Origin: Escherichia coli
Lineage (GTDB): Bacteria > Pseudomonadota > Gammaproteobacteria > Enterobacterales > Enterobacteriaceae
Direction: 5' to 3' (one strand)
Length of the DNA: 64,000 nucleotides
Assembly (NCBI RefSeq): GCF_050320075.1
Contig: NZ_CP190018.1
Part shown: positions 27,001-33,000 of the stretch, in pieces
How positions within the stretch are numbered: the first letter of the stretch is position 1
Layout of the letters: the number at the start of each line of letters is the position of its first letter
Position numbers: made by a program

Positions 27001-30000
27001 ACATGCTTTTTTTTATTTGTTAAAGTACATACGCTTTGATGTATACCCCCGTTATCAGCGGGAAACAGAGTGGCGATTAAACAACGGCGTTGCTCTGTTT
27101 CTGATACAGCAACGACCACTGCGTCCGGTTGTGTTGCAAGGCGCACGAACTCCGTGAAAACCGCGTCGGGAGTGATCCCCGGAGAAAAGTGAGATAACCT
27201 CAGGGCTGGTAACCCGTGACGGCGCTGAATTTTCAGCGCCGTTTTTTATTGGTGTTTTCTGCTTGACTTTATTTATGGCTGTTTTAAAAATGAGCATGCT
27301 AAATAGCTGCTTTGCAGCCAACCAATCTCCCGGTGGTCTGAGAGGGAGGCTTACGCGACCACACTGTCATCTTCGGATGACCAGCCAATGTTCCAGCAGT
27401 CTGAGAGGAGCGCCTTCGGGTGACTGCCAGCCAATGTTTCAGCGATCTGAGAGAAACGCCTTCGGGTGATTGCAATATCCTCGTAGCCTGAAAGGGGATG
27501 CCTTTATGGCGGTACATCCGTTTAGCCTCTGGGAACGGATATCACCACTGGTGATTGAGGTACGTTTAACTGCACAGACAGCCGGAAATTCAGCTGATTC
27601 CGGCATCCCCGACGGGAACTATCACTCCCGTCAGGGCTGGTGATGTTCTCCGTCATATCTTTTTTTACTCCATGGAGAAATCATCATGTCTGCAACTAAC
27701 TCTACTTCTGCAAAAACTGAATACTTCAACCTGACCATGAAAGGTCTTGGGTATCTCAGCAATGTTCGTCAGGTTAACCATCAGAACGGTTCGTTCCTCA
27801 GCTGCGTGATTAACGCACTGAGTGGACCAACGGACAATCCGTCCTATACGCGTTTTGATGTCACGGTTGCCGGTAAAGAGGCGACCACCCTGATCTCCCG
27901 CTGCCAGAAAGCAGTGGATGAGGACCGCAAGGTACTGCTTGGTTTTACGTTAAGCAACCTTGCCACCGACATTTTCACCCTGAACAAGGGGGAGCATGCC
28001 GGTGAGCAACGCGTCAGCCTGAAAGCCCGCCTGATCAAGGTGGACTGGATAAAAATAGGCCAGGAGCAGGTCTATAAGGCTGAAAAAGCGGAGTCCCAGC
28101 CACCGAGCCATGGCACCACAAAACGTGAATACGCAGAAGACTCCTTCTGATCGCGTATTTTTCTCACTGCCTCCCTGATAAAGAAAACAGACCACCATCA
28201 GGGAGGTCTGTTTTCTTATTGTTTTTACTGAACTTTAAGGAAACAAATTATGACTTCTACAAACGGTATTCTCGCAGCTGCGGCAGGTTATACATTACCT
28301 CTGGAAATACTCAAAAGTGGGCGCGGATATTATATTGGCACTCAGTGTTCTGAAGGACCGGTATCCCGTGAATCAGAAGAGTATTTCAAAAAATATGAGC
28401 AGGCTGAGCGGACGCTGAAAAATGGCACCTGGACACAACGTCATGCCTGGTAATGAGGAGGTGCTATGGCTTCACGCGGCGTAAACAAAGTTATCCTGAT
28501 AGGACATCTGGGGCAGGATCCGGATATCCGGTATTTCCCCAATGGCGGTGGCGCTGTGGCGAATCTGTCACTGGCGACCAGCGACACCTGGCGGGATAAA
28601 CAGAGCGGTGAAATGAAGGAAGTTACTGAATGGCACCGCGTTGTTCTCTATGGAAAACTGGCTGAAGTTGCCGGCGAGTACCTGCATAAGGGGTCGCAGG
28701 TGTATATAGAAGGCCAGCTTAAAACCCGTAAATGGTTTGACCAGCAGAATGGTGTGGACCGTTATTCAACTGAGGTTGTTGTGGGCGTGAATGGTGTCAT
28801 GCAGATGCTGGGTTCATCGCGTCAGCAGGGCGCTTCCGGTAATGGTGCTTCAGCACTGGCACAAGGGGGCCAGGGACATCCGCCGAAGACGACCGGACAG
28901 ACTGGTCGTGCCACCCGGACGACGTCAACGGGTAATGGTGCTCCACCAATGGACTTTGACGATGATATCCCCTTTATGGGGCTCGGGTATGGCATGGAAC
29001 GACGAATTATTCATGCCATGTAATATTAACCACGGGGCGTTACGCCCCACTTTTTTATCCGGAGGTTCCGTGAGTGAAAAAGTTAACAAAATCACTATGA
29101 TTCATGACGGGGCGTTCAAGAAGACGCTTGAAGATCCCGCCGCAGTAAGGGACTTTCTTGAACAGGTCTTGACACACGATCAGATATCCCGCTGTAATCT
29201 TGATACAATAGAAGTTGAAAAGAATTCGTTCGTGACGGAAAGTTTGCGTCAGCATGCCTGTGATGTTTTGATCAGCATGAAGACAAACGACGGCAGGGAC
29301 GGATACATTTATACCTTAATCGAGCACCAGAGTTCGCCGGATAAATTCATCCCGCTGCGTATGATGCGATATATCCTGGCTGTAATGGAGCAACATGTTG
29401 AAAAGCATAAGTGTGCACCTGTGGTGATCCCCGTGTTGTTTTATCATGGTGCAATGCGGCCATATCCGTATCCGCTGAACTGGGTGGATTGTCTGGATGA
29501 CCCGGAGTACGGACGGGAGATTTATGGCGAGTCAAAGTCATTCAGTCTGGTGGATGTCAGTACGCTTGATGATGATGAAATTGAGCAGTATCGCCGGATG
29601 GCGGCGCTGATGTACACCATGAAGTCCGGAACTCAGGGTGATTTGATTGAGCTGATTGGTAAATCGATCACACTGACGGATAAGTATGGCAGTAGCATTC
29701 ACCTGAATACGGTGCTTACTTATCTGATGGAACTTTACCAGATGGATGTTGCTGAACTTTTTGAAGCAATATCCACACACTATCCCAGCCATAAGGGGGT
29801 GATTATGACGATAGCGGAACAACTGGAAGAGAAAGGTCGGGTTGAAGGTCTGGAGAAAGGCCTTGAGAAAGGCCTTGAGAAAGGCCGTGCTGAAGGCCGT
29901 GCTGAAGAGCGTCAAAAAGCGCTTGCAGAAACTTATGCATCTGTCCGTCGCATGAGCGATATGGGGATGTCAACGGAAGTTATTAAGCAGGCACTTCATC

Positions 30001-33000
30001 TTTCTGATGAACAGATTCAGGAAGCGCTTAATAATTAACCTCGCATCGTAATGATGTGGCAGAGCGCGACTGATGCGTCAGAACGTGTGATGCCCTGTGA
30101 ACACAGCGCCTGCCATTGTGCAGGCGTTTTTTTATCAATCAGTCTGGTAAATTGTGATGGAACTTTACCAGATGGATTTTGCTGAACTTTCTGAAGCAAT
30201 ATTCACACACTATCCCAGCCACAAGGGGGTGATTATGACGATAGCGGAACAACTGGAAGAGAAAGGCCTTGAGAAAGGCCGTGCAGAAGAGCGTCAAAAA
30301 GCGCTTGCAGAAACCTATGCATCTGTCCGTCGCATGAGTGATATGGGGATGTCAACAGAAGTTATTAAGCAAGCTCTTCAGCTTTCTGATGAACAGATTC
30401 AGGAAGCGCTTAATAATTAACCTCACATCGTAATGATGTGGCAGAGCGCGACTGATGCGTCAGAATGCGTGATGCCCTGTGAACACAGCGCCTGCCATTG
30501 TGCAGGCGTTTTTTTTGTCAACCGGAAATCAGTTGTTCATTGAGCCTTCCCTCACTTCTTCTGCAAATTGACCTCTGACTTTATCACTTCACTGCAGAGG
30601 TAATTCCCTGATGAAAATATCCCTTCTTTTTTCCGCGCTGTCTGCCTGTGTGTTGCTGGCGGGGTGCCAGAGTCCGCAAAAACTGCAGCAGAGGGCGGCC
30701 GCCGTCCCGGTACCGTCGGTGACAGTCAGCAACAATGTCCGTCCGGCAAATCCGGATGTGTACGCCGGTGCGGCGACACCGGAGGTGGTGCGTTATGACC
30801 GCTATCTGCTGGTTAACACGGCACCGGATACGGTACAGCGTGACCCGCTTTCCCAGGTGATTGACATCCGCATTCCGGCATCACTGAAGCCGACGGTGGC
30901 GGATGCGATGCGTTATGCCCTGAAACAGTCCGGCTACACACTCTGCGCCACGGGGCCTGCCAACGGCGTGCTCTACCGTCAGCCGTTACCGGCCGTGCAG
31001 TACCAGACCGGGCCGGTCAGACTGCGGAGCGCGCTGCAGATGATGGCGGGGCCGGCATGGCAGCTTGAGGTGGATGATGTGCAGCGCGTGGTCTGTCACA
31101 GTCTGCGTGAGGGTTATCAGTTACCGGCACGCCAGCTGGCGCCGGTACCGGCGGTGGTGAAGGTATCCGGTGCGGAGCAGAAAAAATGAGTGAAAAGCAA
31201 CAGGAGATATCAGCCGCTGCAGGTGGTTCAGGTGGCACCACACCGTCAGGAAGGGTGAAACGGCGTCCCTCTCCCGGTCTGTTCGCAGGGCTGGTGACGG
31301 TGGTGATGATGGCGGTCGCGGTTGCCGGTCTGGCTCGTTATACGGGAGAGCAGGACAGGCGAATGACTGCGCTGGCGGTGCAGATGAAGGCGTATTCTGA
31401 TGCGCTCGCCTTGTCCGGAACGGAACTGGTACCACTGAGGGAGAGGCTGGCTGAGACCGAAAAACAGCTGAAGAGTGTGGCGGAACGTATTTCTCAGCTG
31501 GAAAAGCGTCCTGCACTGACGGAGGAAGAGCATGCGCGTACGGGAGAGATGGCCGCCAGCCTGGCATCACTGCAGACCTCACTGGCGCAACAGGGAGAAA
31601 CGCTTCGCACGTATGAGCAGCGACTGGAGAAGGTGGAGAAGACTTCAGTCACCCCGGTATCACCGTCATCTGCGAAAGGCGCGGGCGGGACGATGAAGGG
31701 CACAGCGGCGGTTGCGCCACAGAAGAAACGAATGTCTGCCGGCGTGCCGGTGGTCAGTCGTACCGCGCCGTTTGTTCTGACCGGGACAGAGCAGCGGGGA
31801 GGCCGTACGTATGCGGCAGTGGCCCCCCGTGGATTCAGCAGTCTTGCTGATGTGACGTTACTGGGTGAAGGGGAGAGCACGACAGGCTGGGTGCTTGAGC
31901 GTGCAGGACGTGGCGAGGCCACGTTCCGGGTGAATGGTCGTCAGGTCCGGGTCATGGTGGAGTGAGAAAATGAAGCTGAAAAGTCTGTCACTGGCGCTCA
32001 TGCTGCTGTCCCTGCAGGCGATGGCCGCCGTACAGGAGAGTACGCAGCAGGGAACGCGCACCTCCTCATCCTCTCAGGTCAGTACCACCACACAGGAACT
32101 GCAGCAGCAGGCCGGGCAGTGGGGACTCAGTGAGGAAGATTACCGGCGTTACCGTACCCTGATGGAAGGTCCCCGCGGTATTCAGTCTCCGGGGCTGGAC
32201 CCGCTGACGGTACTGGGGATTGAAGCGCGGACGGATGCAGAGCGCAGGGTGCTGGCCGAAAAATGGGTTAAAGCTGAGTATGAACGCACTGAGAAGGAAC
32301 TGGCTTTCCAGCGTGAAGTGAATGCCGCCTGGAAACGGTTGTATCCGGGGGTGATGCCGGTCAGCCTGGGGAATTCTGCCGGCATCGCCCGTGACACCGG
32401 GGGACGTCTTGCCCTGTTTGTCAGGTCGAAAGACTGCAGTACCTGTGATGCGCGGCTGGCCGCCGTGCTTTCATCCGGTCGTCAGGTGGATATTTACCTG
32501 GTCGACAGTCAGGGAAATGATGAAAAGCTGAGGCAGTGGGCCCGGGAGCACAGTATCCCGGCAGACCGTGTGCGCAGTCGCCACATCACGCTGAACCATG
32601 ACGGCGGTCGCTGGCTGCGGTTTGGGGAGGGGAGAATGCCGGTGGTACTTCAGCAGGGGGCTGACGGATGGCGCGTGGCAGCCTTCTGATGTCGCTGCTG
32701 CTGATGGCAGTCAGCATTCCGGCGGGGGCGGCGCTGCATGATATCCCGGAGGGATACGTGCGTGTGGCGGAACAGCATGGTGTTCCGGCAGAAGTACTCT
32801 ATGCCGTCTCGCTGACCGAGACGGCCATGGTCCCCTCCGCCATTGGTGCTGTAATGAAAAAACGGAATGAGGATTACAGGGTACCAGCAGTGGCACGTCC
32901 CTGGCCCTGGACCATCAATGTGGCGGGCCGGGGATACCGCTATGCCAGTCGACTGGAGGCCTGGCAGGCCCTCCAGGTTTTTCTGAAACGATATCCGGCC

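What the first reader, a model, noticed from the sequence alone, without database searches (positions are those of the whole stretch)
29070..30520. Rpn-family nuclease with a tandemly duplicated, repeat-contracted C-terminal domain as a separate ORF
The Rpn (YhgA-like) gene at 29070-30038 ends in a region with three tandem GLEKG-encoding repeats. Its last ~100 codons plus the downstream terminator (29731-30127) are duplicated immediately downstream (30155-30520). The copy forms an 87-aa stand-alone ORF with only one GLEKG repeat and three substitutions, and keeps its own terminator hairpin. Rpn proteins have been reported to act as toxic or antiphage nucleases restrained by a small protein made from their own C-terminal domain; here that domain also exists as an independent gene. 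The repeat-number difference shows active slippage in this segment.
Basis: partly seen in the sequence, partly recalled or inferred. Interest (0 to 1): 0.6.

Follow-up and report, generated by a model that had tools for sequence, protein, structure and literature searches.

The report
Rpn toxin gene with spare antitoxin copy
A DNA-cutting defence gene on a mobile element in E. coli is followed by a duplicated copy of its own tail, which most likely makes a 61-residue small protein; the layout is real and conserved, but it was already described for this gene family in 2023.

Summary
A 322-codon Rpn (YhgA-like, PF04754) gene lies at 29070-30038. Its last ~430 bp, terminator included, are repeated head-to-tail at 30155-30542, and the copy lacks 48 nt (four 12-nt units). 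This is the rpnL/rpnS "gene within a gene" toxin-antitoxin layout plus a downstream stand-alone copy (rpnSs). Zhong et al. (PNAS 2023) described that layout for rpnE-ypaA and rpnC, including repeat-number variation and loss by fusion.

- The likely product of the copy is 61 aa, starting at the conserved internal start (ATG 30235). That start has a very strong ribosome-binding site; the starts of the 87/88-aa ORF have almost none.
- There are four amino-acid substitutions, not three.
- The copy has 3 four-residue units against 7 in the full-length gene. By the published rule that a repeat-number mismatch abolishes inhibition, it is predicted not to restrain its neighbour.

The copy is under purifying selection (pN/pS 0.04). 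It varies from 2 to 9 units among strains, independently of the full-length gene. It has repeatedly been recombined into the full-length gene. The locus sits between ssb and pilL of a SPI-7/PFGI-1-class integrative conjugative element (ICE). It is a new member of a known kind, of modest interest.

The parts
29070..30038 (+). rpnL: full-length Rpn (YhgA-like) PD-(D/E)XK nuclease, 322 aa, GTG start
   Evidence: It matches PF04754 at E 1e-60 and TIGR01784 above its cutoff. The motif residues D13, D65, E85, Q87 and R97 are invariant against K-12 RpnC and RpnE; they correspond to the essential RpnA residues D11, D63, E82, Q84 and R94 (PMC5350276). The anti-SD duplex energy at the GTG is -10.7 kcal/mol.
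29792..29807 (+). Internal ribosome-binding site (UAAGGGGGUGAUU) and internal start codon ATG 29805 inside rpnL
   Evidence: A 13-bp duplex with the 16S rRNA 3' end gives -18.8 kcal/mol. The window background is -4.6 +/- 2.9, with a minimum of -19.5. The Met-Thr is invariant in the alignment with RpnC, RpnE and two other ICE-borne Rpn alleles. It is homologous to the annotated start of ypaA (MTIAERL).
29805..30038 (+). rpnS: predicted 77-aa intragenic antitoxin, in frame with rpnL
   Evidence: This is inferred from the internal start and from the family paradigm (PMC10400941).
29826..29909 (+). Hypervariable 12-nt (4-aa) repeat block in copy A, 7 units: EEKG RVEG LEKG LEKG LEKG RAEG RAEE
   Evidence: The block starts at residue 8 of RpnS, within the 8-20 residue range reported for the family. 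A 6-unit allele occurs in 7 complete genomes.
30105..30134 (+). Intrinsic terminator of copy A
   Evidence: It has a 9-bp stem with 6 G-C pairs, followed by a T-run.
29725..30154 (+). Tandem duplication unit 1 (430 nt)
   Evidence: The start-to-start spacing is 430 and then 382 after the 48-nt gap.
30155..30542 (+). Tandem duplication unit 2 (about 388 nt, 48 nt shorter in the repeat block). The right edge is approximate.
   Evidence: The right edge is inferred by eye from residual similarity of the sequences that follow the two terminators.
30222..30237 (+). Ribosome-binding site and start codon ATG 30235 of the downstream copy
   Evidence: The anti-SD duplex energy is -18.0 kcal/mol. The alternative long-ORF starts at 30154, 30157 and 30172 give only -2.9, -2.9 and -5.2.
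30235..30420 (+). rpnSs: stand-alone 61-aa copy of the C-terminal domain, with 3 units (EEKG LEKG RAEE)
   Evidence: pN/pS against copy A is 0.04, from 7 synonymous and 1 non-synonymous differences. A 61-aa version is deposited as ADI47090.1. The AlphaFold2 model has helices at residues 3-36, 41-48 and 52-60, with pLDDT 78.
30154..30420 (+). It is probably an over-extension of rpnSs.
   Evidence: There is no ribosome-binding site. Upstream of the internal Met the A/B differences are 3 non-synonymous and 1 synonymous, giving pN/pS 0.71. PGAP start calls vary between 82, 87 and 95 aa.
30487..30518 (+). Intrinsic terminator of copy B
29034..29058 (+). Terminator-like hairpin after ssb, 12 nt before the rpnL ribosome-binding site
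   Evidence: No promoter-like site lies between ssb and rpnL. rpnL is therefore probably transcribed only by read-through; this is an inference.

Best explanation
This is an Rpn toxin-antitoxin / anti-phage nuclease locus of the type described by Zhong et al. 2023. It is carried as cargo between ssb and pilL of a SPI-7/PFGI-1-class integrative conjugative element (ICE) in E. coli.

The three products:
- rpnL (29070-30038) encodes the PD-(D/E)XK nuclease, which is the toxin.
- An internal ribosome-binding site and ATG at 29805 give RpnS (77 aa). This is the same C-terminal helical domain made on its own. In this family it binds RpnL through its long first helix and blocks cleavage.
- A 430-bp head-to-tail duplication of the 3' end, terminator included, created a second, stand-alone copy called rpnSs. 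Its real product is most likely 61 aa, starting at ATG 30235.

What distinguishes the two copies: they differ by four 4-residue units in the first helix (7 units against 3). By the published repeat-number rule, RpnSs is therefore predicted to be a poor inhibitor of its neighbouring RpnL.

What RpnSs most likely is: a maintained, fast-varying paralogue rather than a redundant antitoxin. Homologous recombination between the two copies has repeatedly moved it into rpnL. Each such event swaps the toxin's C-terminal specificity region in one step and deletes the spare copy.

Shown here: the anatomy, family membership, conservation of the internal start, purifying selection, population variation and the chimeric alleles. 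Inferred, not shown: translation, toxicity, who binds whom, and the transcription of rpnSs.
For: Family and active site:
- The gene matches PF04754 and TIGR01784, and the catalytic motif residues are conserved.

Internal start:
- The Met-Thr is invariant across Rpn paralogues.
- The anti-SD duplex energies are -18.8 and -18.0 kcal/mol. The long-ORF starts reach at most -5.2 in strength.
- K-12 ypaA starts at the same MTIAE(R/Q)L motif.

Duplication and terminators.

Selection:
- pN/pS is 0.04 downstream of the internal start and 0.71 upstream of it.
- The same A-type and B-type tails (H versus Q, 5-7 nt differences) are kept in two sub-lineages.
- The exact RpnSs sequence is seen on at least 999 contigs.

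Variation in unit number (L = units in rpnL, Ss = units in rpnSs):
- Observed pairs are L7/Ss3 (the window), L6/Ss3, L7/Ss2, L7/Ss3', L7/Ss4, L7/Ss5, L4/Ss4, L4/Ss4', L4/Ss5 and L4/Ss9.

Recombination between the copies:
- Single-copy alleles with 3, 5, 6, 7, 8 or 9 units all carry the B-type tail.
- For five of the six (3, 5, 6, 8 and 9 units) a stand-alone Ss with the identical unit string was found; for 7 units none was.
- The two alleles examined at the DNA level are exact A-5'/B-3' chimeras.

Published paradigm:
- RpnS is translated from an internal start and blocks the cognate RpnL.
- One extra repeat abolishes the block.
- Downstream rpnSs copies exist and can be lost by deletion or fusion (PMC10400941; PMC10400984).
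Against: - There are no expression data for this locus. No sigma-70 consensus promoter was found upstream of either internal start (best 7/12), and a strong terminator precedes rpnSs.
- The repeat-number rule was shown only for RpnC with plus or minus one unit. It may not transfer to this paralogue, which is 36-40% identical to RpnC and RpnE.
- Foldseek did not retrieve the RpnA-S crystal structure, and sequence search of the PDB found nothing.
- The small protein does not match Pfam DUF4351.
- Counts of substitutions are small. Fisher's test for the contrast between the two regions gives p = 0.09.
- Sampling of variants started from Ss homologues, so the greater apparent variability of Ss relative to L is partly ascertainment.
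Confidence: 0.8

Rival explanations
1. RpnSs is a second, in-trans source of cognate antitoxin. It buffers the toxicity of the neighbouring RpnL.
For: - The helix 2-3 region is the same apart from one H>Q change.
- The copy has a strong ribosome-binding site and is under purifying selection.
- YpaA/RpnESs is expressed in K-12.
- Matched-number pairs do exist in some strains: L4/Ss4 in L005 and L026.
Against: - The two differ by four units here, and most natural pairs are mismatched: 8 of the 10 distinct type-I pairs.
- One extra unit abolished inhibition in RpnC (Fig. 4D).
- Ss unit number shows no co-variation with L unit number.
Confidence: 0.15
2. The downstream copy is a non-functional by-product of a tandem duplication, and its repeat changes are neutral slippage.
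For: - No promoter was detected, and a terminator lies upstream.
- Unit-wise indels keep the reading frame automatically, so an intact frame is weak evidence of selection.
- The copy is frequently lost by fusion.
Against: - There are 7 synonymous and 1 non-synonymous differences in 57 codons, giving pN/pS 0.04. A neutral copy would have accumulated roughly ten or more non-synonymous changes at that synonymous divergence.
- The ribosome-binding site and ATG are retained.
- A/B identity is retained across two sub-lineages.
- No frameshifted or stop-containing alleles occur among the variants read.
Confidence: 0.08
3. The stand-alone product is the 87/88-aa ORF as annotated, including 26 residues upstream of the internal Met.
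For: An open frame runs from GTG 30154 or ATG 30157. PGAP and other pipelines call versions of 82-95 aa.
Against: - The long-ORF starts have essentially no Shine-Dalgarno pairing (-2.9 to -5.2 kcal/mol), against -18.0 at ATG 30235.
- Three of the four amino-acid changes fall in those 26 codons.
- K-12 ypaA begins at the equivalent Met.
- Annotated starts are inconsistent between records.
Confidence: 0.1

Closest known systems
rpnE-ypaA (rpnESs) of E. coli K-12 (Zhong et al. 2023, PMC10400941)
   Same: - The rpn gene has an internal start at MTIAE(R/Q)L.
- It is followed on the same strand by a stand-alone copy of the C-terminal domain that starts at the same Met.
- The two copies differ in the number of 4-aa units. 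YpaA has one extra KLEG unit.
   Different: - In K-12 the duplicated segment starts only 12 nt before the internal ATG and abuts the rpnE stop codon. It is 84% identical to its source.
- Here the duplication is 430 bp and 95% identical. It includes 80 nt upstream of the internal start plus the 3' UTR and terminator, so the copy is a separate terminator-bounded unit.
- The unit difference here is four.
- The RpnL here is only 40% identical to RpnE and is ICE-borne.
- RpnE is annotated as inactive, whereas this gene keeps all the catalytic motif residues.
rpnC / rpnCSs and the RpnC repeat-number specificity experiment (Zhong et al. 2023, Fig. 2I, 4D)
   Same: The helix-1 repeats are of the (K/E)G-type (KGIE in RpnC, LEKG/RAEG here). 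A downstream small copy is present in some strains. PGAP labels the window's small ORF 'RpnC/YadD family protein' in some records.
   Different: The proteins are 36% identical. They sit at different loci: the chromosomal panD-panC locus for rpnC, an ICE here. No experiment has been done on this allele.
Plasmid-borne RpnP2LS anti-phage system (Zhong et al. 2023)
   Same: It is a mobile-element-borne rpnL/rpnS toxin-antitoxin pair that protects against T-even phages.
   Different: That system is on a plasmid. This family is on an ICE, and no match was found in 72,556 plasmids. Anti-phage activity of this allele is untested.
EcoR124I/EcoR124II TAEL repeat variation in the type I restriction-modification HsdS subunit
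   Same: A 12-nt (4-aa) repeat number in a helical spacer sets specificity and changes by unequal crossing-over. This analogy is drawn by Zhong et al..
   Different: The protein family is unrelated. There the repeat sets DNA target spacing, not toxin-antitoxin pairing.

Membership tests
Rpn / YhgA-like nuclease (PF04754, TIGR01784, COG5464) | Transposase_31 / Rpn family domain above threshold | tested here: met
   PF04754 matches at E 1.1e-60 over residues 12-204. TIGR01784 scores 124.4 bits against a cutoff of 52.1.
Rpn / YhgA-like nuclease (PF04754, TIGR01784, COG5464) | PD-(D/E)XK signature residues shown to be essential in RpnA (D11, D63, E82, Q84, R94) | tested here: met
   D13, D65, E85, Q87 and R97 are invariant in the alignment with K-12 RpnC and RpnE. 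The essential residues are taken from PMC5350276. RpnA itself was not in the alignment, so correspondence is by motif (HD, DV, EHQ, R).
Rpn / YhgA-like nuclease (PF04754, TIGR01784, COG5464) | DNA endonuclease activity, toxicity and SOS induction | not testable with these tools
   This needs expression and biochemistry.
RpnL/RpnS gene-within-gene toxin-antitoxin (Zhong 2023) | In-frame internal translation start with a ribosome-binding site ahead of the variable C-terminal domain | tested here: met
   A 13-bp SD/anti-SD duplex gives -18.8 kcal/mol, 5 nt before ATG 29805. The Met-Thr is invariant among paralogues.
RpnL/RpnS gene-within-gene toxin-antitoxin (Zhong 2023) | Four-amino-acid repeats that begin 8-20 residues after the internal Met and whose number varies among strains | tested here: met
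   The units start at residue 8. Near-identical loci carry 4, 6 or 7 units in rpnL and 2-9 units in rpnSs.
RpnL/RpnS gene-within-gene toxin-antitoxin (Zhong 2023) | RpnS folds as a three-helix bundle with a long first helix | tested here: inconclusive
   The AlphaFold2 model has helices at 3-36, 41-48 and 52-60, with mean pLDDT 78. Foldseek against the PDB gave no hit with E < 0.7, and RpnA-S was not retrieved. phmmer against the PDB found nothing.
RpnL/RpnS gene-within-gene toxin-antitoxin (Zhong 2023) | Internal promoter giving a short transcript for RpnS | tested here: inconclusive
   No sigma-70 consensus match of 8/12 or better lies upstream of either internal start. A consensus scan cannot exclude a promoter.
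RpnL/RpnS gene-within-gene toxin-antitoxin (Zhong 2023) | RpnS is translated, binds RpnL and blocks it | not testable with these tools
   This needs tagging, ribosome profiling and two-plasmid assays.
rpnSs (stand-alone downstream RpnS paralogue, ypaA type) | Lies immediately downstream on the same strand and derives from the C-terminal region of the adjacent rpn gene | tested here: met
   It is a 95% identical tandem duplication. The A and B tails differ at 6 of 126 nt.
rpnSs (stand-alone downstream RpnS paralogue, ypaA type) | [quoted passage not shown] | tested here: met
   The single-copy alleles L003 and L006 have an A-type 5' part and a B-type tail and UTR, with 0 differences on each side. 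Six such allele lengths were found.
rpnSs (stand-alone downstream RpnS paralogue, ypaA type) | Pfam DUF4351 (PF14261) match. The paper reports this for 'some species' only, so it is not strictly defining. | tested here: not met
   No PF14261 hit was found. The best Pfam hit is UBA, at E 0.011.

The most novel reading that the evidence does not exclude
RpnSs is not an antitoxin for its neighbour. Instead it is a maintained, independently hypervariable 'specificity cassette'.
- It diversifies in repeat number (2-9 units) while the expressed toxin keeps 4, 6 or 7 units.
- A single recombination between the two copies installs a new helix-1 length into rpnL and its nested rpnS together. This re-keys the toxin-antitoxin pair in one step, for example to escape a phage-encoded RpnS mimic or trigger.
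- Until it is used, the free mismatched RpnSs might act as a decoy, or as immunity against Rpn alleles on incoming related elements.
Probability: 0.2. Interest if true: 0.6.

Novelty: new member of a known kind. Interest (0 to 1): 0.3.

Why it matters
The locus adds an ICE-borne example to the Rpn toxin-antitoxin defence family. It also supplies a ready-made natural allele series in near-isogenic backgrounds: L7 with Ss2, 3, 4 or 5; L4 with Ss4, 5 or 9; and fusion alleles with 3-9 units. That series could be used to answer a question Zhong et al. left open, namely what the stand-alone RpnSs copies are for and how repeat number sets pairing specificity. It also corrects routine annotation. The small gene is currently called 'transposase' or 'hypothetical protein', with inconsistent starts of 82-95 aa.

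Tried and rejected
- A genome-contig scan with the full-length protein confirmed no relative. No match was found in PLSDB plasmids. The family was therefore studied in E. coli complete genomes and in contigs found through the small protein.
- PADLOC has no Rpn model. The only hit was a weak 'putative invertase' match to the helical tail.
- Pfam on the small ORF gave no significant family, including no DUF4351.
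- phmmer against the PDB and Foldseek against the PDB did not find the RpnA-S structure. The Foldseek matches were non-significant helix-turn-helix-like domains.
- Promoter consensus scans upstream of both internal starts and upstream of rpnL found nothing better than 7/12.
- A 14-nt similarity between the inter-copy junction (30135-30148) and 29538-29551, and a short inverted match of the junction to the start of the duplicated unit (D13, I2 and I5), were considered as clues to how the duplication arose. They were set aside because matches of that size are expected by chance in a 4-kb region.
- The supplementary files of Zhong et al. are not held. I could not check whether this ICE allele is already in their dataset.
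- The exact 322-aa sequence with an M or V start is not in the protein collection. Gene callers there use the ATG at 29097, giving 313 aa.

Full report
**1. Observation**

- An ORF at 29070-30038 starts at GTG, with GGAGG upstream, and encodes 322 aa.
- It matches Pfam PF04754 (Transposase_31, YhgA-like) at E 1e-60. It also matches NCBIfam TIGR01784 'Rpn family recombination-promoting nuclease' at 124 bits against a cutoff of 52.
- Its 3' part holds 12-nt tandem units that encode EEKG RVEG LEKG LEKG LEKG RAEG RAEE.
- About 430 bp, from 29725 through the stop codon and a hairpin-plus-T-run terminator, recur head-to-tail from 30155. Identity is about 95%, with a single 48-nt gap in the repeat block.
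- Both copies keep the terminator, at 30105-30128 and 30487-30510.
- There are four amino-acid differences, not three. The 16 missing residues are RVEG, two LEKG units and one RAEG unit.

**2. Surroundings**

- Window ~12486-64000 is 99.7-99.99% identical to a SPI-7/PFGI-1-class integrative conjugative element (ICE) in E. coli EC17CM2. That element carries ParA/ParB, dnaB-PI, STY4528/STY4534 replication proteins, topoisomerase III, TIGR037xx conjugation genes, TraD and an integrase.
- Window 1-12485 is a kps capsule gene cluster.
- The rpn pair lies between the ICE's ssb and pilL genes.
- 53 of 5,426 complete E. coli genomes carry a relative at this same position, and 34 match at least 80% of the query region. 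None is on a plasmid in PLSDB.

**3. What it is**

Zhong et al. (PNAS 2023, PMC10400941) reported the following for rpn genes.
- They are toxin-antitoxin 'genes within genes'.
- The full-length RpnL nuclease is toxic.
- A small RpnS, made from an internal start, is the C-terminal domain on its own. It binds RpnL and blocks it.
- Helix 1 of RpnS carries four-residue repeats whose number varies between strains.
- An RpnS with one extra repeat no longer blocks its RpnL.
- Some rpn genes are followed by a stand-alone second copy, rpnSs. Examples are ypaA after rpnE, and rpnCSs.
- The rpnSs copy arose independently in each case. It can be lost by deletion or by fusion to the rpn N-terminal region.

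The window locus fits this description feature by feature.
- The catalytic motif residues are conserved.
- The internal Met-Thr is invariant in the alignment with RpnC, RpnE and two other ICE-borne alleles.
- The internal Met is preceded by UAAGGGGGUGAUU. This pairs with 13 nt of the 16S rRNA 3' end at -18.8 kcal/mol. The window background is -4.6 +/- 2.9 kcal/mol.
- The repeats start at residue 8 of RpnS.
- The K-12 rpnE-ypaA pair was read here for comparison. It has the same logic: ypaA starts at MTIAERL and has one more unit than rpnE.

**4. The product of the copy**

The 87/88-aa ORF is probably an over-extension, for four reasons.
- Its possible starts (30154, 30157, 30172) have almost no Shine-Dalgarno pairing, at -2.9 to -5.2 kcal/mol. 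ATG 30235 has -18.0 kcal/mol.
- Between the two copies, the 26 codons upstream of the internal Met carry 3 non-synonymous and 1 synonymous change (pN/pS 0.71).
- The 57 alignable codons downstream carry 1 non-synonymous and 7 synonymous changes (pN/pS 0.04).
- Pipelines disagree on the start, giving 61, 82, 87 or 95 aa.

The likely product is therefore 61 aa. Its AlphaFold2 model has a long helix (residues 3-36) followed by two short ones. This agrees with the published three-helix description. However, no significant structural or sequence match to a solved structure was obtained.

**5. Is the copy functional?**

The evidence points to a functional copy.
- The low pN/pS argues for purifying selection.
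- The ribosome-binding site and start codon are retained.
- No disrupted alleles occur among the variants read.
- A-type and B-type tails stay distinct in two sub-lineages (W_A vs L004_A 1 difference, W_B vs L004_B 1, A vs B 5-7).
- The exact sequence occurs on at least 999 contigs.

Its transcription is unresolved. A strong terminator precedes it, and no consensus promoter was found.

rpnL itself starts about 20 nt after a terminator-like hairpin that follows ssb, with no promoter-like site between them. RpnL is therefore probably made only by read-through. That would fit the low RpnL: high RpnS ratio reported for the family, but it is an inference.

**6. Natural variation**

Unit counts between MTIAEQL and RQKAL were read from 12 complete-genome loci and 15 contigs. 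L is the count in rpnL and Ss the count in rpnSs.

| Group | L/Ss pairs or alleles seen |
|---|---|
| L7 sub-lineage | L7/Ss3 (the window, plus about 20 complete genomes of identical match length), L6/Ss3, L7/Ss2, L7/Ss3', L7/Ss4, L7/Ss5 |
| L4 sub-lineage | L4/Ss4 (identical units), L4/Ss4', L4/Ss5, L4/Ss9 |
| Partial contigs | further Ss alleles with 6 and 8 units |
| Second lineage (different helix 2-3 tail, duplication starting 79 nt further upstream) | L3/Ss3, L2/Ss3, L5/Ss3. In the L3/Ss3 case the Ss tail is of the other type. |

The L and Ss unit numbers show no co-variation. Eight of the ten distinct type-I pairs are mismatched. Under the published rule (commentary), the window's RpnSs (3 units) should not neutralise its RpnL (7 units).

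Two caveats apply. The rule was tested only on RpnC with plus or minus one unit. My sampling also started from Ss homologues.

**7. Recombination between the copies**

- Single-copy alleles exist with 3, 5, 6, 7, 8 and 9 units.
- All of them carry the B-type (Q) tail.
- For five of the six (3, 5, 6, 8 and 9 units) a stand-alone Ss with exactly the same unit string was found. No 7-unit Ss was found.
- At the DNA level, L003 and L006 are A-type upstream of the internal start (0 differences from L004_A). They are B-type in the tail and 3' UTR (0 differences from W_B).

These are recurrent deletions by recombination between copy A and copy B. Each one replaces the C-terminal region of the toxin, and of its nested antitoxin, with the stored copy. 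The spare copy is lost in the process. Zhong et al. mention such fusions in one sentence. Here they account for most of the observed repeat-number diversity of rpnL in one sub-lineage.

In one strain, rpnL is instead interrupted by ISCro1.

**8. Verdict**

The stand-alone C-terminal gene is an rpnSs, a feature already published for this family. The finding is therefore a new, ICE-borne member of a known kind.

The useful additions are:
- the corrected 61-aa product;
- the evidence for selection on it;
- the four-unit mismatch, which argues against a simple in-trans antitoxin role;
- the allele series and chimeras, which make the role of rpnSs experimentally approachable.

Interest is modest, at 0.3.

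Noticed in passing
window 23211-24130: A tandem array of 25.6 copies of a 36-nt unit (CGGTGTTGCCAGTGGCAACAGTGGTTAAAAAATGTG, 91% matches). Each unit contains a short palindrome (GTTGCCA..GGCAAC). The array lies between the STY4528-family replication gene and the PFL_4669 gene of the ICE. Copy number differs from the otherwise 99.7% identical EC17CM2 record, where PGAP calls a hypothetical protein across it. It looks like an iteron or centromere-like array.
   Followed up: no
window 27365-27518, 55910-56069, 58707-58860; 56547-56669: Three STAXI RNA motifs (Rfam RF01728, 139, 89 and 138 bits) and one EFASI motif (RF02957, 71 bits), all on the + strand. Two of the STAXI copies sit in 249-nt direct repeats that are 99% identical.
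   Followed up: partly
window ~12486 (ICE end); 1-12485: The left 12.5 kb is a kps capsule gene cluster. Identity to the ICE of EC17CM2 starts at ~12486. PGAP annotates a 78-nt 'tRNA-Ser' at the corresponding ICE end of that record, but ARAGORN finds no tRNA anywhere in the window.
   Followed up: partly
L032 (NZ_CP123240.1) 788-4436; equivalent to window ~29203: In strain YZLc1-3 the same rpnL is split by an IS66-family ISCro1 insertion near codon 45, while rpnS and rpnSs stay intact. Another contig (L025) has an IS integrase (rve) gene directly upstream of a 5'-truncated rpnL.
   Followed up: partly
window ~53574-53837, ~60399-60908, ~33848-34438 (mapped from NZ_CP190349.1): ICE cargo includes a type-B (zinc-independent) ribosomal protein L31 paralogue, an ArdA antirestriction gene, and a small 'restriction endonuclease' gene embedded among the conjugation genes.
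   Followed up: no
L007/L010 1679-2032 versus 671-1606: In a second ICE lineage the downstream rpnSs has the same helix-1 repeats as its rpnL but a different helix 2-3 tail. That tail is of the type found in the window, and it differs from the rpnL tail at 91 of 126 nt. The two copies are therefore mosaic, not a simple duplicate.
   Followed up: partly
window 29910-30035 versus 30292-30417, and flanks: Synonymous divergence between the two copies in the RpnS-coding tail (pS 0.19) is higher than divergence in the 78 nt upstream of the internal start (4/78) or in the 3' UTR (3/89). This suggests constraint on, or later homogenisation of, the flanking non-coding parts.
   Followed up: no
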